Of a stretch of DNA of 12,548 bases, positions 1 to 12,548 are shown in pieces. The stretch is taken from positions 1 through 12,548 of the IMG/VR virus record IMGVR_UViG_2778261640_000001, one strand, 5' to 3'. Origin of the DNA: a virus (taxonomy: Duplodnaviria > Heunggongvirae > Uroviricota > Caudoviricetes). The notes below the pieces were generated by a model. The model searched no databases, was not told where the DNA came from, and saw only the letters and a list, made by a program, of their open reading frames with translations. The position numbers were made by a program, and so were the translations under genes. Positions within the stretch are counted from its first letter, which is position 1, and every line of letters begins with the position of its first letter.

Positions 1-411
1 ATGCCTGCCCCCGTCGTCCTGATCCTTGCGGCCGGGCGTGGAGAGCGCTTTCTCGCCTCCGGGGGAAATACCCATAAGTGTATCGGCTGGCGTCAGTCCC
101 CGGAGGTTGCGCCTTATCGCTGGCCATTTGAAGAAAACGGGAGAACTTTCGACCTTGCGATTGAACCGCAGATTACGACTAATGATCTGCGTCTGATGTT
201 GAGGCTGACTCTTGCCGGCGGAGGAATAACAATTGCCACTCAGGAAACTTTCAGGCCATATATTGAAAGCGGTAAGCTTGTATCGCTGCTTGATGACTTT
301 CTTCCACAATTTCCGGGCTTCTATCTGTATTTCCCACAGCGTCGCAATATTGCACCAAAGCTCCGCGCCCTGATTGACTACGTCAAAGAATGGCGGCAGC
401 AATTGGCTTAA
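1..411 (+). CDS. LysR-family transcriptional regulator, C-terminal part (5' end outside window); probably host flank
   Basis: ORF runs from the window edge to TAA at 409-411. From about residue 40 the translation reads like a LysR effector-binding domain C-terminus (RWPFEENGRTF, NDLRLMLRLTLAGGGITIATQETF, IESGKLVSLLDDF, FYLYFPQRRNIAPKLRALIDYVKEW). The first 40 residues are less typical. Confidence 0.55.
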   Translation: MPAPVVLILAAGRGERFLASGGNTHKCIGWRQSPEVAPYRWPFEENGRTFDLAIEPQITTNDLRLMLRLTLAGGGITIATQETFRPYIESGKLVSLLDDFLPQFPGFYLYFPQRRNIAPKLRALIDYVKEWRQQLA

Positions 412-671
412 ATGTCTGCACCTGCACTGCCTGATGTCAGAACAGTATTTTGATGAATTGCCAAGGTTACAATGGCACAAATACGGCACAGGAGGAAACG
501 TGGTGTATTTAAATATGGGGTAACTCTTTGATTTTAATGGTGCGATAATAGGAATGAACATTACAAGTTAACACATTGATTTATAATAGATTATAATATT
601 CAAAAAATATAACTATACACATATCTATACACACTGCGTGCGTCGCTTGTTTTTCGCACAATTAAAAATAA

Positions 672-975
672 GAAAAAAATTTTTTTTCGAAAGAACTGTT
701 CACACTGTTCACCTTTCTTTTTTCTCCTTTTATTTCAGTATGATAGGTGGTGAATAATGGGTGAAGGGTGAACATTCGATTCTTCACCTCCGGCATTCTG
801 CCGGTGTGACTCATACCGGTGATTAATCCCCCGTACTAAAAATCGCACAGGGAGAAAAAAGTTTTTTTTGATTTGATTGTTCACACTGTTCACCTTTCGT
901 TTTTCTCTTTTAATTTCAGTGTGATAACGGGTGAATATACGGTGAAGGGTGAACAGTGGATTGTTCACCTTCGGG
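672..975. repeat. crr: crr-like cis replication region: two ~120-bp direct repeats (672-792 and 852-975) separated by ~60 bp, each carrying TGTTCACC / GGTGAACA octamers
   Basis: Hand alignment shows the two copies nearly identical (ctgttcacactgttcacctttc ... atttcagt.tgata ... ggtgaagggtgaaca ... ttcacct). This matches the recalled P4 crr layout and sits immediately downstream of the alpha gene. Confidence 0.75.
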
Positions 976-988
976 GGATTCAGGGATG

Positions 989-1028: not shown

Positions 1029-3362
1029 TCAGGTTGTTGCAGGGTCGTCACATTTTGGCAGCCAGTCGCCGTAGCTTTCCTCTTTCAGCGTCAGGTTGGT
1101 CTGTATCCCCTGTTTGGTATGGCGCTTCTCGTAATTCAGCCCGTATTCCTTCAGCATCACCGGCAGCCCCAGCCCGAACATTTTCAGACTGAGTACATTC
1201 CGGTAGCCGTTTGCCTCCATGTAGGCCAGATAGGCGTGATAGAGGTATTTACGGTAGTTACGCGGGATGATACTGGCGTTCCCCATATACATGCCGCTGG
1301 TCTGCGGCAGGGTTTCCAGATAGCCGATAAAATCAAACGTCGGGTCGGCATCCCGTTTGATGTTCAGTGCCTCGTCTGAGTTCTGCTGGGACTGAAGCAG
1401 TGACCGGGCGAGCATCGGGTCGCTGAACTTCTGCATCAGGTGACGCACGATGACCGCCAGCTCGCGGGTGATTTTGTCCTTAAGCTGCGGGTCGCGCTCC
1501 TGCGGGGCTATCTGTTCCGGGAAGTGAATAATCACCCGCCGGCGTGACACGCCGCCGCTGCGGTCGGTGAAGCGCATCGGGTTATTGTTGACGGCCAGAA
1601 TCACCGCCGGGATATGCGTGGAGTACGCATCCCGGTATTTCGGGTCAACGGACACCGCATCGCCGCCGGTGATGGCCTTGAGTCCGGCTCCGTCGCCGCT
1701 CCATTTTTCCTGGTCCGGCAGGCGTATCAGTGAGAAGCCAGTTAACGCGGCACGTTCACGCGGGGATTCCAGCGTCTCGATGGTGGCCGACGTGGCGTTA
1801 TCCTCCCCGGCCAGCAGGGTGGCTATTTCGGCCATGATACTTTTGCCGCTGCCGCCGGGACCGGTCACCTCCAGAAAGAGCTGCCAGTCGTAGCGGTTTG
1901 CCAGCACCATAAACAGTGCGGCCAGAATCACGTCGCGTTTTTCCGCACGACCACCGGCGGCACGGTCAAGCCAGCGCCAGAACGCGGGAGCGTGGGTTTC
2001 CAGCGTTTCCCCTTCCACCGGCGGGGTGAAATCCACATCGCACAGGGTGCGCATCCAGTGTGACGGACTGTGCGGGTGGAACGAGCCGTTCTGCGTGTCG
2101 AGCACGCCGTTACGAAAGCCAATCAGGCGGCGGGAGGGGGCTTCCTGCTGCGGAATAATCAGCTTCAGGGTGTCCACCACGGAGGCCACCTTCCCGGAGG
2201 AGAACGGCGCGCGCAGCCGCTGAAACAGCCCGGCCACATCCCGGGCAAAGTCCTGTGGTGGCAGCACCTTCCAGACACCATTTTCATAGCGGGACAGAAG
2301 CTGGCCGTTGGCATCGACCGCGAGCGCCTCGCCGTAATGCTCATAGATACGCATGGCCTTTTCGCTGGTACTCATGGCGGAAAACTCCGCTTCGCTCATG
2401 GTGTCGAACGGGCTTTCAGCCGGTGGCCGGATGGCATCATAAATGGCCTTACGGGTGGCTTCCCCGCCGTACTGCGTGAAGGCATCATTCCAGTCACCGA
2501 AGACCGGCGGCAGGGCAACAACACCTTCACACGCATCTGCGGCTGCGGCGGCTTTTGTCTGGCCGTCACCGCTGAGGTCACGGTCAGCAGCAAGGACAAT
2601 CTGACAGGCCGGATGCTTCTGCCGGGCAAGGCTGGCCAGAGAAAGGAGGTTCACGGAAGAAAGCGCCACCATCACCGTTTCACCGGTCAGGTGATGTACG
2701 GTAAGTGCGGTCGCGTATCCCTCCGCTATCCACAGACGTTTTCCGGCCTGATTCTGTCCTTCAAGGGTGTGACAGGTGCCCCTGACCTGTCCGCCTTTCA
2801 GGGTGCGCTTACGGCCGTCAGCACTGATTAACTGAAGGTTAACCAGTTCGCCGCTGTCGTCATACAGTGGCACCACAAGGTCACCGGCGCGCCAGCTCAC
2901 GCCACCGGCTCTGTGTGTGCCGGTCAGCATCCGGCATTCCCGGCCGGGAAAGCCCTTGCGGGTCAGGTAGGCGTTACCGGTTCCGGGACGGGTTTTCGCC
3001 ATCAGGGTTTGTGCCAGTGCGGCGGCGTTCTTCCGGGCGGCTTCTGTTTCAGCACCGGCGGCAGCCGTCACTGCCGGGTCAGCCGGGGGCAGACTGCCGG
3101 TCACGGCAGCCACCTTTGTGGCCGCGTCGGACGGGGAAACACCAAACACCTTTTCAACCAGTTTCAGGCCGTCACCGGCACCACACTGATTGCAGTACCA
3201 GGTGCCGCGCCCCTCCCTGTCATCAAAACGGAAGCGGTCACTCCCGCCACAGACCGGACAGGGCTGATGACGGTTTTTCAGCACCTGAATCCCCAGCGCC
3301 GGGAGAATACGCGGCCAGTGACCGAGCGCATGGCTGACGGTGGCGGTTACGTTCATTTTCAT
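1029..3362 (-). CDS. alpha: P4 alpha-type primase-helicase / origin-binding replication protein
   Basis: 777-aa ORF. N-terminal zinc-ribbon primase signature (CPVCGGSDRFRFDD ... WYCNQCG), a Toprim-like acidic stretch (LAADRDLSGDGQ), Walker A GPGGSGKS and a long C-terminal domain. AGGAG sits 9 nt upstream of the ATG. Length equals recalled P4 alpha. Confidence 0.9.
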   Translation of the reverse strand: MKMNVTATVSHALGHWPRILPALGIQVLKNRHQPCPVCGGSDRFRFDDREGRGTWYCNQCGAGDGLKLVEKVFGVSPSDAATKVAAVTGSLPPADPAVTAAAGAETEAARKNAAALAQTLMAKTRPGTGNAYLTRKGFPGRECRMLTGTHRAGGVSWRAGDLVVPLYDDSGELVNLQLISADGRKRTLKGGQVRGTCHTLEGQNQAGKRLWIAEGYATALTVHHLTGETVMVALSSVNLLSLASLARQKHPACQIVLAADRDLSGDGQTKAAAAADACEGVVALPPVFGDWNDAFTQYGGEATRKAIYDAIRPPAESPFDTMSEAEFSAMSTSEKAMRIYEHYGEALAVDANGQLLSRYENGVWKVLPPQDFARDVAGLFQRLRAPFSSGKVASVVDTLKLIIPQQEAPSRRLIGFRNGVLDTQNGSFHPHSPSHWMRTLCDVDFTPPVEGETLETHAPAFWRWLDRAAGGRAEKRDVILAALFMVLANRYDWQLFLEVTGPGGSGKSIMAEIATLLAGEDNATSATIETLESPRERAALTGFSLIRLPDQEKWSGDGAGLKAITGGDAVSVDPKYRDAYSTHIPAVILAVNNNPMRFTDRSGGVSRRRVIIHFPEQIAPQERDPQLKDKITRELAVIVRHLMQKFSDPMLARSLLQSQQNSDEALNIKRDADPTFDFIGYLETLPQTSGMYMGNASIIPRNYRKYLYHAYLAYMEANGYRNVLSLKMFGLGLPVMLKEYGLNYEKRHTKQGIQTNLTLKEESYGDWLPKCDDPATT

Positions 3363-5974: not shown

Positions 5975-6709
5975 ATGTCTGACAACACCATCCCTGAATA
6001 TCTGCAATCCGCGCTGGCACAACTGGAAAAGGCCAGAGCCGCCCATCTTGAGAACGCCCGTCTGATGGATGAGACCGTCACGGCCATTGAACGGGCAGAG
6101 CAGGAAAAAAATGCGCTGGCGCAGGCCGACGGAAACGACGCTGACGACTGGCGCACGGCCTTTCGTGCAGCCGGTGGTGTCCTGAGCGACGAGCTGAAAC
6201 AGCGCCACATTGAGCGCGTGGCACGCCGGGAGCTGGTACAGGAATATGACAATCTGGCCGTGGTGCTGAATTTTGAACGCGAACGCCTGAAAGGGGCGTG
6301 TGACAGCACGGCCACCGCCTACCGGAAGGCACATCATCACCTTCTGAGTCTGTATGCAGAGCATGAGCTGGAACACGCCCTGAATGAAACCTGTGAGGCG
6401 CTTGTCCGGGCAATGCATCTGAGCATTCTGGTACAGGAAAATCCGCTCGCCAACACCACCGGCCATCAGGGCTACGTCGCACCGGAAAAGGCTGTCATGC
6501 AGCAGGTGAAATCATCGCTGGAACAGAAAATTAAACAGATGCAAATCAGCCTCACCGGCGAGCCGGTTCTCCGGCTGACCGGACTGTCAGCGGCAACACT
6601 CCCGCACATGGATTATGAGGTGGCAGGCACACCGGCACAGCGCAAGGTGTGGCAGGACAAAATAGACCAGCAGGGTGCAGAGCTTAAGGCCAGAGGACTG
6701 CTGTCATGA
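5975..6709 (+). CDS. sid: Sid-like external capsid size-determination scaffold
   Basis: 244-aa ORF, coiled-coil-like and rich in A/E/L/Q. GAGGAG sits 7 nt before the ATG. Length and position match P4 sid. Confidence 0.8.
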   Translation: MSDNTIPEYLQSALAQLEKARAAHLENARLMDETVTAIERAEQEKNALAQADGNDADDWRTAFRAAGGVLSDELKQRHIERVARRELVQEYDNLAVVLNFERERLKGACDSTATAYRKAHHHLLSLYAEHELEHALNETCEALVRAMHLSILVQENPLANTTGHQGYVAPEKAVMQQVKSSLEQKIKQMQISLTGEPVLRLTGLSAATLPHMDYEVAGTPAQRKVWQDKIDQQGAELKARGLLS

Positions 6710-7206
6710 TTTACTGCCCGTCGTGTGGACATGTTGCTCACACTCGTCGCGCACATTTCATGGACGATGGCACCAAGATAATGATTGCACAGTGCCGGAA
6801 TATTTATTGCTCTGCGACATTTGAAGCGAGTGAAAGCTTTTTCTCTGACAGTAAAGATTCAGGAATGGAATACATTTCAGGCAAACAGAGATACCGCGAT
6901 TCACTGACTTCTGCCTCCGGCAGTATGAAACGCCCGAAAAGAATGCTTGTTACCGGATATTGTTGTCGGAGATGTAAAGGCCTTGCACTGTCAAGAACAT
7001 CGCGGCGTCTGTCTCAGGAAGTCACCGAGCGTTTTTATGTGTGCACGGATCCGGGCTGTGGTCTGGTGTTTAAAACGCTTCAGACCATCAACCGTTTCAT
7101 TGTCCGCCCGGTCACACCGGACGAACTGGCAGAAAGCCTGCATGAAAAACAGGAACTGCCGCCAGTACGGTTAAAAACACAATCATATTCGCTGCGTCTG
7201 GAATGA
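6706..7206 (+). CDS. delta: Delta-like late-gene transactivator with two Ogr-type zinc-finger modules
   Basis: 166-aa ORF whose ATG overlaps the sid stop (ATGA). Two cysteine modules: CPSCGHVAH...CRNIYCSATF and CRRCKGLAL...CTDPGCGLVF. Confidence 0.85.
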   Translation: MIYCPSCGHVAHTRRAHFMDDGTKIMIAQCRNIYCSATFEASESFFSDSKDSGMEYISGKQRYRDSLTSASGSMKRPKRMLVTGYCCRRCKGLALSRTSRRLSQEVTERFYVCTDPGCGLVFKTLQTINRFIVRPVTPDELAESLHEKQELPPVRLKTQSYSLRLE

Positions 7207-7279: not shown

Positions 7280-7852
7280 ATGGAAAGCACAGCCTTACAG
7301 CAGGCCTTTGACACCTGTCAGAATAACAAAGCAGCATGGCTGCAACGCAAAAATGAGCTGGCAGCGGCCGAACAGGAATACCTGCGGCTTCTGTCAGGAG
7401 AAGGCAGAAACGTCAGTCGCCTGGACGAATTACGCAATATTATCGAAGTCAGAAAATGGCAGGTGAATCAGGCCGCCGGTCGTTATATTCGTTCGCATGA
7501 AGCCGTTCAGCACATCAGCATCCGCGACCGGCTGAATGATTTTATGCAGCAGCACGGCACAGCACTGGCGGCGGCACTGGCACCGGAGCTGATGGGCTAC
7601 AGTGAGCTGACGGTCATTGCCCGAAACTGTGCCATTCAGCGTGCCACAGATGCCCTGCGTGAAGCCCTTCTGTCCTGGCTTGCGAAGGGGGAAAAAATTA
7701 ATTATTCCGCACAGGATAGCGACATTTTAACGACCATCGGATTCAGGCCTGACGCGGCTTCGGTGGATGACAGCCGTGAAAAATTCACCCCTGCGCAGAA
7801 CATGATTTTTTCGCGTAAAAGTGCGCAACTGGCATCACGTCAGTCTGTGTAA
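7280..7852 (+). CDS. psu: Psu-like polarity suppression / capsid decoration protein
   Basis: 190-aa ORF, last gene of the sid-delta-psu operon. Length matches P4 psu. Confidence 0.8.
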   Translation: MESTALQQAFDTCQNNKAAWLQRKNELAAAEQEYLRLLSGEGRNVSRLDELRNIIEVRKWQVNQAAGRYIRSHEAVQHISIRDRLNDFMQQHGTALAAALAPELMGYSELTVIARNCAIQRATDALREALLSWLAKGEKINYSAQDSDILTTIGFRPDAASVDDSREKFTPAQNMIFSRKSAQLASRQSV

Positions 7853-7916: not shown

Positions 7917-8016
7917 GCATGCGTTTCCCTGCCTCATTTTCTGCAGACCGCGCCATTCCCGGCGCAGCCTGAGCGTGTCAGTACAACTGCATTAAAACCG
8001 CCCCACAAAGCGGGCG

Positions 8017-8035
8017 GGCGTGGCGGGGAGAGCAT
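8017..8035. other. cos: cos-like site (putative P2/P4-type cohesive end)
   Basis: GGCGTGGCGGGGAGAGCAT matches 16 of 19 positions of the P2/P4 cohesive end as I recall it (GGCGAGGCGGGGAAAGCAC, from memory). It lies between psu and the cargo, where P4 cos is expected. Confidence 0.4.
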
Positions 8036-8052
8036 TGCGCGCCAAGTAATTT

Positions 8053-9675
8053 TTAATTTATTTTTTTATAAAGGCCATCTAACCCAGGTTTCAAAAGAAA
8101 TTGAGATGGAGCCCCGTTCTTAAGATCACCTGAACCATTATACCGTTTCGTAGAATGCATTAGCATAATGCCTTTTCTTGCTCGTGTAATTCCTACGTAA
8201 TGAAGATTTATGCATTGCTGTTCATTTTCGAATACAACATCATAGCTTCCTTCTATGAAAACTCTTTTAGGCAAAATCCAATCATACAGATCCAAATGAA
8301 AAACAAAGTCAAACTCAAGACCTTTAGACTTATGTAACGTCATTATTTGTACTTCATCACTTCTAACATCCAAATAATTATTTTGCATCCTCGGAGTAAC
8401 TAATATCTCTGAAAGAGCGGACTTATGATGCTGCTCGATTTCAGTCCCTAAAAGAGTTACTACAATTTTATTTATTACGTCAATAAGAAAGGCATCTGTA
8501 ACACTTCTAACCTGCTTAATAGCCTTACGGATACGAGTAGCCTCGCTCCTTTTGACACTGCTTCCCAAAACCCCCTCCAAAATAGACTGAGCAGTTTTAT
8601 TTAAGTTATACCTGTAACATAATAAATCATTAACAAGACCAGAAACCTTACCACCAGCCTTTGTTAAATCATTATCCAAATAAGCCCTATTAGAAACAAC
8701 TAAATTATCAGAAACTAGCTCCGCGCAAGCATTGCTTCTTACCAATATAGCAATCTCCTTATTATCAGATATTGAAAATTTATTTTTTACATTATCAAGA
8801 ATTTCACCAATCCATTTAGCTATATCAATTTGATTGCCATCAACACATTTTCTATAAACAAAAATCTCATCACACGGAGCTAGTTGACATTCAAAATCTT
8901 TAATTCTATTGGCGTAATTTACTATAGATGGGTGACATCTGTGATTTACTGTAATTTCCTTATGACAGAAACCACTATCATTCATGAAATCTTTTAGTGA
9001 ATCCGAACTGCGGTGAGAATACAAATAAATTGATTGATCCAAATCACCAACGATAATAAGAGGCATCCCTAGCGTTGGTATGAACTTGAAAACCTGATGA
9101 GTAAAATAACCGGTATCCTGATACTCATCGACAAAAAAACCAATATACTTTGCCATTAAATACCGCTGACAAGAATATGATGTTCTAACTATATAAAAAG
9201 CCAAGTGAGGAAGGAAGTCTAAAATCAACATCCCCTTTAAATAAATATCCCTCAGAGAACCCATGCCCTCAAATGAAGTATTAGAATAAAAATCCACTCG
9301 GTCAAAGTACTTATTTGTCTTATCTTTTAATTCTTGAGAAAGATCTATATACTTTACTACTTCGAGAGCGCTTTCGTTTCTGCCCCATACTTGCCTTACA
9401 AAAGGTAATATTATTTCGTTAATGAAAAACTTATCAATAGTACCAAAGAAGCTAGAATTTAACTCTGCTCCCAATTTTCTACATCTGGATTTTAGCTCCT
9501 CGCTGGATTTATTCGTATATGATAACGCAACAACTCCCTGATAATCCTTGGAATGGGATAAACAGGCAGCAATCTTATGGACGAGTATTGTTGTTTTACC
9601 ACTTCCTGGGCATGCAGTTATAACCAGATTACCTTCGTAATCAATTGCATCTAACTGTTCCTTAGTTAGCTTCAT
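8053..9675 (-). CDS. gajB: UvrD/PcrA/Rep-like SF1 helicase, GajB-like partner of a class 2 OLD nuclease
   Basis: 540-aa ORF with all SF1 helicase motifs read by eye: I ACPGSGKTT, Ia ALSYTNKSSEEL, II FVDEYQDT, III IIVGDLDQSIY, IV VNHRCHPSIVNYAN, V IMTLHKSKGLEFDFVF, VI YVGITRARKG. ATGA overlap with the upstream gene and GAGGTGA ribosome-binding site. AT-rich. Confidence 0.75.
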   Translation of the reverse strand: MKLTKEQLDAIDYEGNLVITACPGSGKTTILVHKIAACLSHSKDYQGVVALSYTNKSSEELKSRCRKLGAELNSSFFGTIDKFFINEIILPFVRQVWGRNESALEVVKYIDLSQELKDKTNKYFDRVDFYSNTSFEGMGSLRDIYLKGMLILDFLPHLAFYIVRTSYSCQRYLMAKYIGFFVDEYQDTGYFTHQVFKFIPTLGMPLIIVGDLDQSIYLYSHRSSDSLKDFMNDSGFCHKEITVNHRCHPSIVNYANRIKDFECQLAPCDEIFVYRKCVDGNQIDIAKWIGEILDNVKNKFSISDNKEIAILVRSNACAELVSDNLVVSNRAYLDNDLTKAGGKVSGLVNDLLCYRYNLNKTAQSILEGVLGSSVKRSEATRIRKAIKQVRSVTDAFLIDVINKIVVTLLGTEIEQHHKSALSEILVTPRMQNNYLDVRSDEVQIMTLHKSKGLEFDFVFHLDLYDWILPKRVFIEGSYDVVFENEQQCINLHYVGITRARKGIMLMHSTKRYNGSGDLKNGAPSQFLLKPGLDGLYKKIN

Positions 9676-11372
9676 AATTCACCTCTAGCAATTTTCAGTG
9701 CATGTATTAGAGGTCTGGCTATATCTTTGCTCTTCAGTTCAGTTAAAAAAGCTTTTTTCTCTTTAATTAACTCACGCATACGTATAGCTTTTTTTCCTCT
9801 CAAATAATCAGCGGCATCATCTAGATTATCCTTACTTGCATAATCAAGAACATGCTTCGAAAAGTCATTAGCAAGATCTCCTTCAAGATCAAAAAAAGAT
9901 ATATAAACGCCGTTAGGATTTATTATTGGTGAAATGGTTCCCCACTTAGTATGCAAAGCTTTACTATCTATAGGAATACTTGAGTTTGGTTCTTTATTCT
10001 CTCCACACAGTGCTAACGCCCTATTTACACCAGCATATTGCCATTCATTCTTATGAGGTACTTTTGAAGCATCATTGTCTGTTCTTACGATCCAATTAAT
10101 ATTTAGAGCTGTTAATATTTTTCTATAAACTTCAAATTGGATACCATCAACAGAAAGAATGCTGATGTTATAATAATCAAGATCAATACTTAATGCTTTT
10201 GCTAATTCAGTGTAAAAAATCACCTCAGATGGTCCCTCGACCAAAAAAACCACGTTAGCAAAAAATGCCTCAGCAGGAATAATACTCATCCGGTAGCCCA
10301 TTCCATCCCATGCAGAGCTAATACAATCAGAACATCCATTACTTGCGGCTAGAGTCTCTCCATCATCATAGTATAGTTTTATGATTGAATCAGGTTTAAA
10401 ATTCACTGCAATTTGGGGTGAGTGGCTTGTAACGATTGCTTGGCCTGGAAGTTTATCGATTAAATAGGCCGCCAATTTTCTTTGCTGGTGAGGAAATAGA
10501 TGTGCTTCCGGTTCCTCTATACAATAGATCACTACTTCACTTTCAACATCATGCTCGCGAACACTTTTTGCTTTCCATAACGCAAGAAGGATTTGGTTAT
10601 TAAACCCATCGCCACCAAGCATTAGTTTCTTCCCATTTGTATTCGCACTTAATTCTAATTTCTCTATAAACTGGTCAATCCCTATTGCACCAGTATCAAG
10701 TTGAACAGTTAATCTATCATGAGTATAGGATAACTTTCTAAGTTCCTCGTTAAGCTCTTCTGTTGCTGATGCAACATAACTTATTCCTTTAACTTTTTCA
10801 TTTACTTCAGTAAGTAGCTTATTTAATTCAGTAAAAACCGCCCCATCATTTTCAGTATCCTTTTCACTACGAACTTCTTGCGCCAATCTTAAAAGATGCT
10901 TCTTTTCAATTTTAATGTATTTTTCAAGATCTCTTTGCGAATTTATATACCTTAGACTTAAACACTTTAAGTAAAATCTATTAGGAACCTCATCAAAATT
11001 GTTATGTTCATGACTAAGTAATATCTTGTAATCCATAGTTAATGATGAAGCAAGATACTTAATGTATGTTTCCCCTTCATCGCTAACATACCCTCCTAAT
11101 TTAGATATTACAGCATCTTCACTAACATCTGTAAACTTGATAGTGATTTCTATATTTTCAACCTGTTCACCTGTCGAATTTACATGAAAGTCATTGCTTT
11201 TTGGTTCTAGATCTAATTCAGATAAACTTTTATCAAGTAATAATCGAATGGCATATAATAGGTTGGTCTTTCCAACATCATTTGCACCTATAATCAAATT
11301 AGTTTCATTAAAATTAATAACAGCATCACAGTAATTCCTGAATCCTTTAATATAAACAGTTTCAATTCTCAT
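9672..11372 (-). CDS. gajA: OLD-family ABC-ATPase plus Toprim nuclease, GajA-like
   Basis: 566-aa ORF. Walker A GANDVGKTN near the N-terminus, Walker B / H-loop (VVIYCIEEPEAHLFP ... IVTSHSPQ), C-terminal Toprim motifs (VVFLVEGPSEV, WIVRTDNDAS). The ATG directly follows the int stop (TAAATG). AT-rich. Confidence 0.75.
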   Translation of the reverse strand: MRIETVYIKGFRNYCDAVINFNETNLIIGANDVGKTNLLYAIRLLLDKSLSELDLEPKSNDFHVNSTGEQVENIEITIKFTDVSEDAVISKLGGYVSDEGETYIKYLASSLTMDYKILLSHEHNNFDEVPNRFYLKCLSLRYINSQRDLEKYIKIEKKHLLRLAQEVRSEKDTENDGAVFTELNKLLTEVNEKVKGISYVASATEELNEELRKLSYTHDRLTVQLDTGAIGIDQFIEKLELSANTNGKKLMLGGDGFNNQILLALWKAKSVREHDVESEVVIYCIEEPEAHLFPHQQRKLAAYLIDKLPGQAIVTSHSPQIAVNFKPDSIIKLYYDDGETLAASNGCSDCISSAWDGMGYRMSIIPAEAFFANVVFLVEGPSEVIFYTELAKALSIDLDYYNISILSVDGIQFEVYRKILTALNINWIVRTDNDASKVPHKNEWQYAGVNRALALCGENKEPNSSIPIDSKALHTKWGTISPIINPNGVYISFFDLEGDLANDFSKHVLDYASKDNLDDAADYLRGKKAIRMRELIKEKKAFLTELKSKDIARPLIHALKIARGEL

Positions 11373-12548
11373 TTACATTTTCCTTAAAAATAACGTTGAA
11401 GAGAAAAAGTTCAACATTTTCCTTCTTTCTTCAATGAATGTTGCATGATTATATGTACCGCGAATTCTATTACTATCAACGTGAGCGAGCTGTAATTCAA
11501 TATATTGAGAATTAAAGCCAGCATCATGTAAAATAGTTGACATCATATGCCTAAATCCATGACCTGTAAGCCTGCCACCGTATCCAAGTCGCTTTATAAG
11601 CTGATTGATAGCGGCCTCACTCATTGGCTTACTCGGATCATTTCGCCCAGGAAAAACATAACGATAGTTGCCTGTCATTGTCTTGAGTTCATTGAGTAAA
11701 TCTAACGCCTGAGTAGACAATGGCACAAGATGCGGCCTGCGCATTTTCATCCTTTCAGCAGGAATTTCCCAAATAGCGTTATCCAGATCAAATTCTTGCC
11801 ATAATGCCGCGCGTAATTCGATGGTTCTCACGCCCGTAATCATCAGTAATTTCGTTGCTATCTGGACAATTTTACTCCCGGTGTAACTCTCTAAGGCACG
11901 CAGAAATTCGGGTATCTCATCAGCTTTTAAGAACGGGAAATGATTGGATTGATGCACTTCGAGAGCGCTGGAGAGATCCGCAGCAGGATTGTACTCCGCC
12001 CTACCTGTTGCAATTGCGTAGCGAAACACCTCGGAGCAACGCTGCCGCACTTTACGCATTTTCTCCAACGCACCACGTTTCTCAATTTTACGCAGTACGT
12101 TCAGCAGCTCTAGCGGTTTAATCTCTCCCACAGGCCTTGTTCCAACATAAGGAAAAATGTCGTTCTTAAACGCTTCCATGATGTCTGATGCGTATCCAGC
12201 TGACCATTTAGCAGATTTAAGTTGATGCCACTCTCTGGCGATCTTTTCGAAGGCGTTCTCTGACTCTGTTTGCAGAGCCAGCTTTTGCTCTTTTCGAACC
12301 TCACTAGGGTTCTTTCCTTCTGCCACAAGTTTTCGAGCTTCATCACGACGGGAACGAGCATCGGCAAGGGTGATCGTTGGGTAAACGCCAAGCGAGATCA
12401 TCTTGGGTTTACCGGCGTAGCGATAGCGGAACCGCCAGCTCTTGCTTCCATTAGGTTCTATAAGCAATGACAAGCCTTGCCCATCCCCAAGCGTATAGGG
12501 TTTATCTTCAGGCTTAGCGCGGCGAATCTGCATATCGTTTAAAGGCAT
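11373..12548 (-). CDS. int: P4-type tyrosine integrase; ATG at the window edge
   Basis: 391-aa ORF. N-terminus MPLNDMQIRRAKPEDKPY is typical of P4-family integrases. The C-terminal catalytic region carries HGFRHMMST and LAHVDSNRIRGTYNHA with the likely catalytic tyrosine. Confidence 0.85.
   Translation of the reverse strand: MPLNDMQIRRAKPEDKPYTLGDGQGLSLLIEPNGSKSWRFRYRYAGKPKMISLGVYPTITLADARSRRDEARKLVAEGKNPSEVRKEQKLALQTESENAFEKIAREWHQLKSAKWSAGYASDIMEAFKNDIFPYVGTRPVGEIKPLELLNVLRKIEKRGALEKMRKVRQRCSEVFRYAIATGRAEYNPAADLSSALEVHQSNHFPFLKADEIPEFLRALESYTGSKIVQIATKLLMITGVRTIELRAALWQEFDLDNAIWEIPAERMKMRRPHLVPLSTQALDLLNELKTMTGNYRYVFPGRNDPSKPMSEAAINQLIKRLGYGGRLTGHGFRHMMSTILHDAGFNSQYIELQLAHVDSNRIRGTYNHATFIEERRKMLNFFSSTLFLRKM

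What the first reader, a model, noticed from the sequence alone, without database searches (positions are those of the whole stretch)
11360..11480. Cargo operon is fused to the integrase gene: stop and start abut, with the ribosome-binding site inside int
The int stop (TAA, 11375-11373) is immediately followed by the cargo ATG (11372-11370), and the AAGGAAA ribosome-binding site is encoded by the last int codons (LRKM). There is no intergenic promoter space, so the defence genes are either read through from int or driven by a promoter inside the int 3' end. A perfect TATAAT occurs on the minus strand at 11453-11448 without a good -35. The exact joint also suggests cargo exchange by recombination at a fixed point next to int.
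Basis: seen in the sequence. Interest (0 to 1): 0.5.

Follow-up and report, generated by a model that had tools for sequence, protein, structure and literature searches.

The report
Defence genes fused to satellite integrase
In this P4-like phage satellite the Gabija anti-phage genes start on the very next base after the integrase stop codon and use a ribosome-binding site written inside the integrase; related satellites carrying many unrelated defence cargos are built the same way, and the last quarter of the integrase gene is inherited together with the cargo rather than with the rest of the integrase.

Summary
The int stop TAA (11375-11373) abuts the gajA ATG (11372-11370). The Shine-Dalgarno AAGGAAA (11385-11379) lies in the last int codons, and TATAAT is at 11453-11448.

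The cargo is Gabija (gajA 9672-11372, gajB 8053-9675) in the known int-psu hotspot of a P4-like satellite.

The joint is not peculiar to this element. In this integrase clade, 31 of 44 distinct junctions carry a same-strand cargo gene starting -38 to +15 nt from the int stop. These cover at least 13 unrelated first genes, and 26 of 29 tested have a Shine-Dalgarno core. The nine convergent cases have a hairpin after int instead. The P4-type integrase clade has 0 of 55 tight junctions.

The exchange boundary is not at the int stop. Divergence jumps at int nt ~900 (window ~11649), and the int 3' end has cargo-like GC. It co-diverges with the cargo (Mantel rho 0.78, p=1e-4), not with the int 5' part.

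TATAAT is simply the catalytic Tyr-Asn codons, and I found no sign of an internal promoter.

Most likely int-gajA-gajB is one operon read from upstream of int, with coupled translation. That step is inferred, because no transcript data were available. This is a moderately interesting new variant of a known hotspot.

The parts
11373..12548 (-). int: a P4-family tyrosine integrase, 391 aa. The window ends exactly at its ATG.
   Evidence: Pfam matches Arm-DNA-bind_3, Phage_int_M and Phage_integrase. Catalytic H330/R333/H356/Y366 are invariant in alignment A1. RefSeq annotation of the identical locus agrees.
11650..12548 (-). int 5' block (int nt 1 to ~899). It is shared at about 97% identity with elements carrying other cargos and acts as the left homology arm for cassette exchange.
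   Evidence: Mismatches against L002 and L003 run at 0-6 per 50 nt up to nt ~900. Change-points cluster at nt 900-970 in 35 of 48 contrasted pairs.
11373..11649 (-). int 3' block (int nt ~900-1176), which encodes the HxxR, H and Y catalytic motifs. It is AT-rich and inherited with the cargo.
   Evidence: Mismatches run at 13-24 per 50 nt against elements with different cargo. Against L110-L112, which carry the same Gabija on a different int 5' part, they run at only 1-6 per 50 nt. GC is 0.37 and GC3 0.325, compared with cargo 0.33 and int 5' 0.46. Mantel rho with cargo identity is 0.78, p=1e-4.
11442..11462 (-). Codons for R-G-T-Y-N-H-A, the catalytic Tyr366 motif. It contains the TATAAT at 11453-11448 and is the last stretch that can be aligned with elements carrying other cargos.
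   Evidence: Sequence. blastn alignments to 18 other elements end at window 11443-11410.
11379..11385 (-). Shine-Dalgarno AAGGAAA for gajA, inside int codons L388-R389-K390.
   Evidence: Sequence. Close relatives L110-L112 keep a purine-rich GAGGGAAA at this position although the amino acids change.
11370..11375 (-). TAAATG: the int stop (11375-11373) directly followed by the gajA start (11372-11370).
9672..11372 (-). gajA: an OLD-family ATPase plus TOPRIM nuclease of Gabija, 566 aa.
   Evidence: PADLOC GajA PDLC00066, E=3.9e-261. Pfam AAA_15 and OLD-like_TOPRIM.
8053..9675 (-). gajB: a UvrD-like helicase, 540 aa. Its ATG overlaps the gajA stop (ATGA at 9675-9672).
   Evidence: PADLOC GajB PDLC00123, E=3.4e-224. 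Pfam UvrD-helicase and UvrD_C. ORF coordinates.
7998..8042 (-). GC-rich hairpin plus T-run (8017-7998), which looks like a terminator for the int-gajAB transcript. It lies inside the conserved cos-like region (GGCGTGGCGGGGAGAGCATTGCGCGCC, 8016-8042). Homology with other elements resumes here, about 10 nt after the gajB stop.
   Evidence: Terminator scan. Sequence. blastn homology with L010, L020, L047, L063 and L066 reaches window 8042-8045 from the psu side and stops there. Compare the P4 cos sequences in Rousset Table S2.
7280..7852 (+). psu, the right-hand core gene that bounds the hotspot.
   Evidence: Pfam Psu, E=3.4e-88.

Best explanation
The window holds a P4-like satellite integrated at tRNA-Thr (thrW). 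Its int-psu defence hotspot holds Gabija.

Expression. int, gajA and gajB form one head-to-tail unit with no room for a promoter or terminator between them. The junctions are TAA|ATG and then ATGA. The first terminator-like hairpin lies after gajB, inside the cos region. I infer that gajAB is transcribed by read-through from whatever drives int: a promoter in the ~160 nt between thrW and int, and possibly thrW itself. Ribosomes would start gajA on the AAGGA written in the last int codons, or re-initiate after terminating at the adjacent TAA. Defence expression would then be tied to the low, self-limited expression expected of an integrase.

Evolution. The unit of exchange is not 'everything after the int stop'. 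It is a block running from about int nt 900 to cos, window ~8045-11649. The conserved first ~900 nt of int on one side and cos/psu on the other serve as arms for homologous recombination. The last ~92 codons of int, catalytic residues included, travel and diverge with the cargo. The last 8-12 int residues after the conserved W-Y-S are unconstrained. That lets them carry each cargo's ribosome-binding site and lets the stop codon drift from -38 to +15 nt relative to the cargo start.

Shown: the anatomy, the generality across at least 13 cargo families, the mosaic boundary, the co-divergence, and the contrast with the P4-type integrase clade.
Inferred: co-transcription from upstream of int, translational coupling, and homologous recombination as the exchange mechanism.
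For: Anatomy.

Generality:
- Other E. coli elements carrying Gabija, DRT3, a second Gabija type and an ABC-three-component/LmuA-like cargo all start 1-3 nt after the int stop.
- Across GTDB genomes and IMG/VR there are 44 distinct junctions. 31 are tight or overlapping, 2 have spacers of 22-25 nt, 2 have spacers of 72-157 nt, and 9 are convergent with a hairpin right after int.
- First genes include GajA (two types), Drt3a, Drt8, PtuA, a SIR2/ThsA-like protein, DUF4297, LmuA-like, HATPase-like and unknowns.
- A Shine-Dalgarno core is present in 26 of 29 tight junctions, 0 of 8 convergent ones, and 12% of background windows.

No internal promoter signal.

Boundary inside int.

Linkage of the int 3' end with the cargo:
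- Spearman 0.75 against -0.11 for int 5'.
- Mantel rho 0.78 (p=1e-4) against -0.23 (p=0.87).
- Reciprocal mosaic in L110-L112.
- In E. coli the window's int 3' allele is found at 99% or more in 19 genomes and at no more than 80% elsewhere. 18 of the 19 carry this gajAB, and the nineteenth has an IS1-associated deletion.
- All 7 metagenomic GajA relatives, down to 62% amino-acid identity, sit directly behind this integrase clade.

Control: the P4-type integrase clade has 0 of 55 tight junctions and stays 81-85% identical until its last ~60 nt.
Against: - No transcript or protein data were available, so operon status and coupling are inferred from anatomy only.
- The consensus scan also finds no good sigma-70 promoter in the 160 nt upstream of int, so the source of transcription is unidentified.
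- Weak promoter-like matches do exist inside int: CTTACA-17-TATGAT at 11570-11542, 9 of 12, and TTGAAT-17-GATAGT. These scans cannot exclude them.
- An AU-rich hairpin followed by UUAUUUUU (11434-11387) sits just upstream of the Shine-Dalgarno and could attenuate read-through. The fold of the region is not unusual, however (z=-0.54).
- Pairs of elements are phylogenetically non-independent, and junction classes were dereplicated by an arbitrary threshold.
- Some start codons were chosen by me from Shine-Dalgarno position and N-terminal conservation.
- About 30% of junctions in this clade are not tight, so the fusion is not obligatory.
Confidence: 0.65

Rival explanations
1. A promoter inside the AT-rich 3' end of int is the main driver of gajAB. 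The int 3' end would travel with the cargo because it is the cargo's promoter region.
For: The last ~280 nt of int are AT-rich (GC 0.30-0.38) and are inherited with the cargo, as a cargo-specific regulatory region would be. Weak -35/-10 matches exist. Rousset et al. obtained defence from one same-strand P4 hotspot system (Hydrolase+3TM) cloned from a primer at the RGTYNHA motif, about 90 nt of int plus a 56-nt spacer, under its 'native promoter'.
Against: Best promoter scores in the last 300 nt of int are lower than in shuffled sequence. They are only slightly higher in tight elements (6.5) than in convergent ones (5.6), which need no such promoter, and in both groups they fall below the shuffled mean. 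TATAAT is the Tyr-Asn codon pair, present at the frequency codon usage predicts, with a 20-nt spacer to TTGATA. Promoter-like counts do not exceed shuffles. The active Rousset clone has its own spacer with promoter-like sequence. Three other same-strand systems cloned the same way (PARIS-1, NOD-1, SIR2) were inactive, and PARIS-1 became active only under Ptet.
Confidence: 0.2
2. The abutment is only genome compaction. P4 capsids hold about 11.6 kb, so elements with a 3.3-kb cargo lose every spare base. On this view the joint has no regulatory meaning.
For: The element is about 12.2 kb from attR (~536-553) to thrW. Both cargo ends are tight: 0 nt to int and about 10 nt to the cos region. gajA and gajB overlap.
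Against: The P4-type integrase clade packages into the same capsids. It nevertheless keeps spacers of 30-330 nt before same-strand cargo and has 0 of 55 tight joints. Compaction does not explain the specific presence of a Shine-Dalgarno in the int tail, or the hairpins after int when the cargo is convergent. Compaction and operon fusion are not mutually exclusive.
Confidence: 0.1
3. Cargo is exchanged by site-specific or otherwise fixed-point recombination exactly at the int stop, in the manner of integron cassettes.
For: The exact TAA|ATG joint in this window. The same zero offset occurs in another cargo, PtuA in L017 and L063.
Against: Offsets range from -38 to +15, and int tails differ in sequence and length. 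No conserved non-coding site exists at the joint. Homology breaks about 280 nt upstream, inside int, and the int 3' end co-diverges with the cargo. Related junctions differ by point mutations that move the stop, for example TAA in L001 against GAA in L014.
Confidence: 0.03

Closest known systems
The int-psu defence hotspot of P4-like satellites (Rousset et al. 2022, PMC9122126; Moura de Sousa et al. 2026, PMC13586616)
   Same: The core genes and order are the same: int, cargo, cos, psu, delta, sid ... alpha. The cargo is a known defence system. Different cargos occupy the same locus in otherwise similar elements, and cargo swapping is rapid.
   Different: Those papers place the hotspot 'between' int and psu, say systems occur in either orientation, leave the integrase out of their core-gene analyses, and clone systems 'with native promoters'. 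In the passages my term searches returned from those two papers and from PMC8628076 (I did not read them in full), I found no description of three things seen here. First, the cargo start is fused to the int stop with the ribosome-binding site inside int. Second, the variable block begins ~280 nt inside int. Third, this is specific to one integrase clade.
Satellite P4 itself (NC_001609): int, then cII (same strand), then beta and gop (opposite strand)
   Same: The first hotspot gene (cII) is on the same strand as int, and there is a terminator after it.
   Different: The int is only 40% identical. There is a 66-nt gap between int and cII. In its clade, 0 of 55 junctions are tight and int stays conserved until its last ~60 nt.
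Ordinary translationally coupled operon junctions, with stop and start overlapping or abutting and the Shine-Dalgarno inside the upstream gene. Examples from my own knowledge are trpE-trpD and trpB-trpA, and lambda xis-int.
   Same: TAAATG and ATGA joints, with the Shine-Dalgarno 8 nt upstream inside the preceding ORF.
   Different: Here the upstream gene is a conserved mobile-element core gene. The downstream genes are interchangeable and unrelated cargos, yet the operon-type joint is re-created or maintained for each of them. Coupling itself is untested.
Class 1 integrons, in which the cassette promoter Pc lies inside the integrase gene (from my own knowledge)
   Same: Expression signals for exchangeable cargo are embedded in an integrase coding sequence.
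   Different: In integrons Pc points away from intI, and cassettes are inserted by site-specific recombination at attI/attC. Here the cargo is same-strand and downstream, only the ribosome-binding site is demonstrably inside int, and no recombination site was found.

Membership tests
P4-like satellite with int-psu defence hotspot | P4 core genes present in the canonical order (int ... psu, delta, sid ... alpha primase) | tested here: met
   Pfam Psu 3.4e-88, Ogr_Delta 6.9e-22, the primase domains of alpha and DUF5375. The order matches the P4 record.
P4-like satellite with int-psu defence hotspot | Variable cargo between int and psu, next to cos, differing between related elements | tested here: met
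   Cargos seen at this locus include Gabija, DRT3, DRT8, Septu-like PtuA, SIR2 and DUF4297. The cos-like sequence is at 8016-8042.
Gabija defence system | GajA (ATPase plus TOPRIM, OLD family) followed by GajB (UvrD-like helicase) | tested here: met
   PADLOC GajA 3.9e-261 and GajB 3.4e-224, both full length. Pfam AAA_15, OLD-like_TOPRIM and UvrD domains.
Gabija defence system | Protects against phage | not testable with these tools
P4-family tyrosine integrase | Arm-binding, central and catalytic domains, with the catalytic residues checked here (H330, R333, H356, Y366) conserved | tested here: met
   Three Pfam domains. H330, R333, H356 and Y366 are invariant in A1. Y is kept in all intact alleles.
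Translationally coupled operon junction | Same strand, stop and start within a few nt, Shine-Dalgarno inside the upstream ORF at 5-10 nt | tested here: met
   TAA|ATG, with AAGGA 8 nt upstream. The arrangement is conserved across relatives.
Translationally coupled operon junction | Both genes on one transcript, with no promoter or terminator between them | tested here: inconclusive
   There is no space between the genes and no terminator was flagged at the joint. No internal promoter signal was found. No RNA data were available.
Translationally coupled operon junction | Downstream translation depends on upstream translation | not testable with these tools
   This needs nonsense-mutant reporter assays. 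The local RNA fold does not sequester the Shine-Dalgarno (z=-0.54).
Fixed-point (integron-like) cassette exchange | Conserved recombination site or fixed joint at the cassette boundary | tested here: not met
   Offsets range from -38 to +15 and tails vary. The homology break lies inside int at nt ~900-1106.

The most novel reading that the evidence does not exclude
In the thrW-type integrase clade of P4-like satellites, defence cassettes have no promoter of their own and each carries its own version of the integrase catalytic end. They would be expressed only as the tail of the int transcript. That transcript is possibly fed by read-through from the same-strand host tRNA-Thr gene, since no terminator was found between thrW and int. 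Defence dosage would then be set by integrase autoregulation and by the integrated state. Every cassette swap would also create a chimeric integrase. If so, clones of these systems made 'with native promoter' systematically lack their promoter.
Probability: 0.3. Interest if true: 0.6.

Novelty: new variant of a known kind. Interest (0 to 1): 0.45.

Why it matters
P4-like satellites are among the richest reservoirs of anti-phage systems in Enterobacteria, and their hotspot is being mined for new systems.

If cargo in this common integrase clade is expressed through int, there are three consequences:
1. Constructs that begin at or near the int stop, or at the RGTYNHA primer site, lack the natural promoter. 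They can give false negatives or need an artificial promoter.
2. Defence expression would be tied to the regulation of integration and excision.
3. The hotspot boundary used in comparative studies should be moved about 280 nt into int. Integrase trees for these elements mix two histories, which may contribute to the reported incongruence of integrase phylogenies.

The sharp contrast with the P4-type integrase clade gives a natural comparison for testing why two solutions coexist.

Tried and rejected
- TATAAT as a conserved promoter element. Rejected: it is the Tyr-Asn codon pair, present in 18 of 36 alleles, with a 20-nt spacer to TTGATA.
- Enrichment of sigma-70-like promoters in the int 3' end. 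None found, either with the tool scan or with my own weight-matrix scan against shuffles and against convergent elements.
- RNA structure hiding the Shine-Dalgarno or start codon. The fold is not unusual (z=-0.54).
- Fine-scale correlation between int 3' GC and cargo GC. Not significant: rho is 0.09-0.15 and the cargo GC range is narrow. Only the group means match.
- Correlation of int 3' identity with cargo identity over all pairs. It is weak, because unrelated cargos score about zero. The signal appears only among homologous cargos.
- Recent swaps on the window's own int backbone in E. coli. None: int 5' at 99% or more occurs only with this cassette.
- The one genome with this int but no gajAB. 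This is an IS1-associated deletion, not a different cargo.
- Searching the window for the P4 cos 19-mer with up to 2 mismatches. No hit. The cos-like sequence differs at 3 positions.
- Testing whether int tails derive from the 5' UTR of free-standing gajA genes. Not possible, because every GajA relative found (at least 62% identical) is already int-linked.
- Literature searches for a prior description of the fusion returned nothing specific. Two further searches failed on term format, as did one paper look-up.
Full report
**1. The observation**

On the minus strand the sequence reads ...TTA AGG AAA ATG TAA ATG AGA ATT GAA....
- The int stop TAA occupies 11375-11373 and the next ATG 11372-11370.
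- AAGGAAA occupies 11385-11379, inside codons L-R-K-M, with 8 nt between AAGGA and the ATG.
- TATAAT is at 11453-11448. The nearest -35-like hexamer, TTGATA at 11479-11474, is 20 nt away.

The ORF list gives int at 11373-12548(-), 391 aa, and two downstream ORFs at 9672-11372(-) and 8053-9675(-). The latter two overlap by ATGA. RefSeq annotates the identical E. coli locus the same way.

**2. What the genes are**

- int has the three domains of P4-family tyrosine integrases.
- The two cargo proteins are full-length matches to GajA (E=3.9e-261) and GajB (E=3.4e-224) of the Gabija system. GajA has AAA_15 plus OLD-like TOPRIM domains and GajB has UvrD domains.
- The rest of the window is a P4-like satellite backbone: psu 7280-7852, delta 6706-7206, a sid-like ORF 5975-6709 and the alpha primase 1029-3362.
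- In the identical E. coli genome the element sits at tRNA-Thr (thrW), which is same-strand with int and 162 nt upstream of it.
- An attR-like copy of the tRNA end lies at about window 536-553, so the element is about 12.2 kb.

The cargo therefore occupies the known int-psu hotspot of P4-like satellites (PMC9122126, PMC13586616).

**3. Is the joint special to this element?**

It is not. Four other E. coli elements whose int is 86-92% identical carry different cargos: another Gabija, DRT3, a second Gabija type and an ABC-three-component/LmuA-like set. All have the first cargo gene 1-3 nt after the int stop, with a Shine-Dalgarno in the last int codons.

I then collected relatives of this integrase from species-representative genomes and from IMG/VR. 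After dereplication there are 44 distinct junctions (corrected by inspection):

| Junction class | Number |
|---|---|
| Same-strand cargo start -38 to +15 nt from the int stop | 31 |
| Spacer of 22-25 nt | 2 |
| Spacer of 72-157 nt | 2 |
| Convergent genes, with a hairpin directly after the int stop | 9 |

The first genes at tight joints belong to at least 13 unrelated families: two GajA types, Drt3a, Drt8, PtuA, a SIR2/ThsA-like protein, DUF4297, LmuA-like, HATPase-like and several unknowns.

A Shine-Dalgarno core lies 4-17 nt before the start in 26 of 29 tight joints that I scored (the 29 classed as tight, before the corrections). None occurs in the tails of 8 ints followed by convergent genes, and the background is 12% of windows.

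As a control, I surveyed the clade of the P4 integrase itself, which is 40% identical to this one. P4 has a 66-nt int-cII gap. None of 55 distinct junctions in that clade is tight. Same-strand cargo there sits 30-390 nt (automatic start picks) downstream, usually with its own Shine-Dalgarno.

The fusion is thus a property of one integrase clade. It is not a feature of P4-like satellites in general, and it is not a simple result of the shared packaging limit.

**4. Where the exchange boundary really is**

- megablast hits of int plus the start of gajA against 5,426 E. coli genomes stop inside int, at int nt 929-1106.
- Against elements with other cargos (L002, L003 and others), mismatches run at 0-6 per 50 nt up to int nt ~900 and then jump to 13-24 per 50 nt.
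- A two-segment likelihood fit places the change-point at nt 900-970 in 35 of 48 strongly contrasted pairs.
- With sensitive blastn, alignability ends at window 11443-11410, immediately after the RGTYNHA motif. On the other side it resumes at about 8042-8045, in the cos-like region only ~10 nt from the gajB stop.
- Composition changes at the same place: int 5' has GC 0.46, the last ~200 nt of int have 0.37 (GC3 0.325), and the cargo has 0.33.
- In the P4-type clade identity stays at 0.78-0.92 (0.81-0.85 over the last 200 nt) until int nt 1200 and falls only in the last ~60 nt. The deep intragenic boundary is therefore also clade-specific.

**5. The int 3' end is inherited with the cargo**

- Among 47 pairs of elements with homologous first cargo genes, cargo identity correlates with identity of the int 3' block (rho 0.75) and of the tail (0.74). 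It does not correlate with the int 5' block (-0.11).
- A Mantel permutation on nine Gabija elements gives rho 0.78 (p=1e-4) for the 3' block, 0.81 (p=5e-4) for the tail, and -0.23 (p=0.87) for the 5' block.
- The reciprocal mosaic exists. Metagenomic elements L110-L112 carry this window's Gabija (gajA 93-94% nt identity) and its int 3' block (1-6 mismatches per 50 nt), but a different int 5' part, with 5-14 mismatches in most 50-nt bins (range 1-14). They keep the TAA|ATG joint. The Shine-Dalgarno changes to GAGGGAAA and the tail residues change from LRKM to LREM or LREI.
- In E. coli the window's int 3' allele occurs at 99% or more in 19 genomes and at no more than 80% everywhere else. 18 of those genomes carry this gajAB, and the nineteenth has an IS1 and a deletion right after int.
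- All seven GajA relatives found in metagenomes, down to 62% amino-acid identity, lie directly behind this integrase clade. Junction variants are related by point changes; for example TAA in L001 corresponds to GAA in L014, which extends int 11 nt into gajA.
- Catalytic H330, R333, H356 and Y366 are kept in all intact alleles. The divergent 3' blocks are therefore functional alleles, not decay.

**6. Promoter or read-through?**

TATAAT at 11453-11448 is the codon pair for the catalytic Tyr366 and Asn367. Among 36 alleles it is TATAAT in 18, TATAAC in 9, TACAAT in 6 and TACAAC in 3. This is about what the codon usage of these genes predicts. Its protein-fixed distance to the V-D codons that give TTGATA is 20 nt.

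- The tool's promoter counts do not exceed shuffles (13 against 15.4±4.2; 3 against 2.8±2.0).
- My weight-matrix scan of the last 300 nt of int gives best scores below shuffled sequence, both in tight elements (6.5 against 7.6) and in convergent ones (5.6 against 7.3).
- When the cargo is convergent there is a hairpin right after int. This implies that int transcripts normally reach the int stop. When the cargo is same-strand there is no such structure, and the first terminator-like hairpin is after gajB, in the cos region (8017-7998).

I therefore favour read-through from upstream of int. There is a caveat: no consensus promoter is seen in the 160 nt upstream of int either. That region holds GTGTATA repeats, one of them overlapping the int start, which look like arm-type integrase sites. 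From my own knowledge, P4 int is negatively autoregulated; I could not retrieve the paper.

Published cloning data are only loosely informative. In Rousset et al., same-strand hotspot systems were amplified from a primer on the RGTYNHA motif. One system with a 56-nt spacer was active. PARIS-1 needed Ptet, and NOD-1 and SIR2 showed no activity. None of these was an abutted junction.

**7. Comparison and novelty**

The element and its hotspot are known kinds, and stop/start abutment with an internal Shine-Dalgarno is ordinary operon anatomy.

Three things were absent from the passages my term searches returned from PMC9122126, PMC13586616 and PMC8628076, none of which I read in full, and from the literature searches:
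- unrelated, rapidly swapped cargos are all fused in operon fashion to the integrase in one clade;
- the variable block starts ~280 nt inside int and carries the catalytic end;
- the P4-type clade is organised differently.

I rate this a new variant of a known kind, of moderate interest. The operon reading is the best explanation, but it rests on anatomy and comparative data only.

Noticed in passing
window 11387-11434 (- strand): An AU-rich inverted repeat inside the int tail (UUGAAGAAAGAAGG ... CUUUUUCUCUUCAA, 13 pairs) is followed by CGUUAUUUUU, just upstream of the gajA Shine-Dalgarno. It appears in both the MFE and the centroid fold. It could attenuate read-through or be chance. It is retained in the close relatives L110-L112, which are too similar to be informative.
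   Followed up: partly
L108 1430-1503 (upstream of the window end) and window ~612-631: GTGTATA(G/T) repeats occur twice directly upstream of int and once inverted across the int ribosome-binding site and ATG. They occur again near attR. They look like arm-type integrase binding sites placed where they could repress int and therefore the fused cargo.
   Followed up: no
L108 1263-1500; L001 4761-5000; L003 4762-5000: tRNA-Thr (thrW) is same-strand with int and 162 nt upstream. No terminator-like structure was flagged between them, so read-through from the tRNA gene into int and the cargo is conceivable.
   Followed up: partly
window 8016-8042: The cos-like sequence GGCGTGGCGGGGAGAGCATTGCGCGCC differs at 3 positions from the P4 cos end. 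It matches the variant seen in the Klebsiella P4-like elements cloned by Rousset et al. The gajB stop is only ~10 nt away.
   Followed up: partly
window 1-411 (+): This ORF, flush with the window start, ends in a LysR substrate-binding domain. It begins with MPAPVVLILAAGRGERF, which looks like a nucleotidyl-transferase N-terminus. It may be a fused or rearranged host gene flanking attR.
   Followed up: no
window ~690-980 (- strand): Two long direct repeats (...gaatgttcacccttcacc...ggtgaacagtgtgaacaa...) lie downstream of alpha. They correspond in position to the P4 crr 120-bp repeats.
   Followed up: no
L116 (E. coli PO06101) 6173-6904: An IS1 sits immediately after a one-codon-shorter copy of this int, and the rest of the satellite is gone. 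This is an example of IS-mediated loss of the cassette with the integrase retained.
   Followed up: partly
L015, L019, L022, L024, L026, L028, L029, L038: Several species-representative genomes carry this integrase with in-frame stops or frameshifts, while the fused cargo ORF remains open. L022 is one example: it has three stops in int and Tyr changed to Cys, with gajA intact. The cargo seems to outlive the integrase, which raises the question of how it is translated once int translation is interrupted.
   Followed up: no
L117-L176 (P4-type integrase clade): In the P4-type clade the variable region begins inside the integrase ORF too, but only in the last ~10-30 codons, after MMQWWADYL. P4's own 440-aa integrase therefore ends in a cargo-side, AT-rich tail.
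   Followed up: partly
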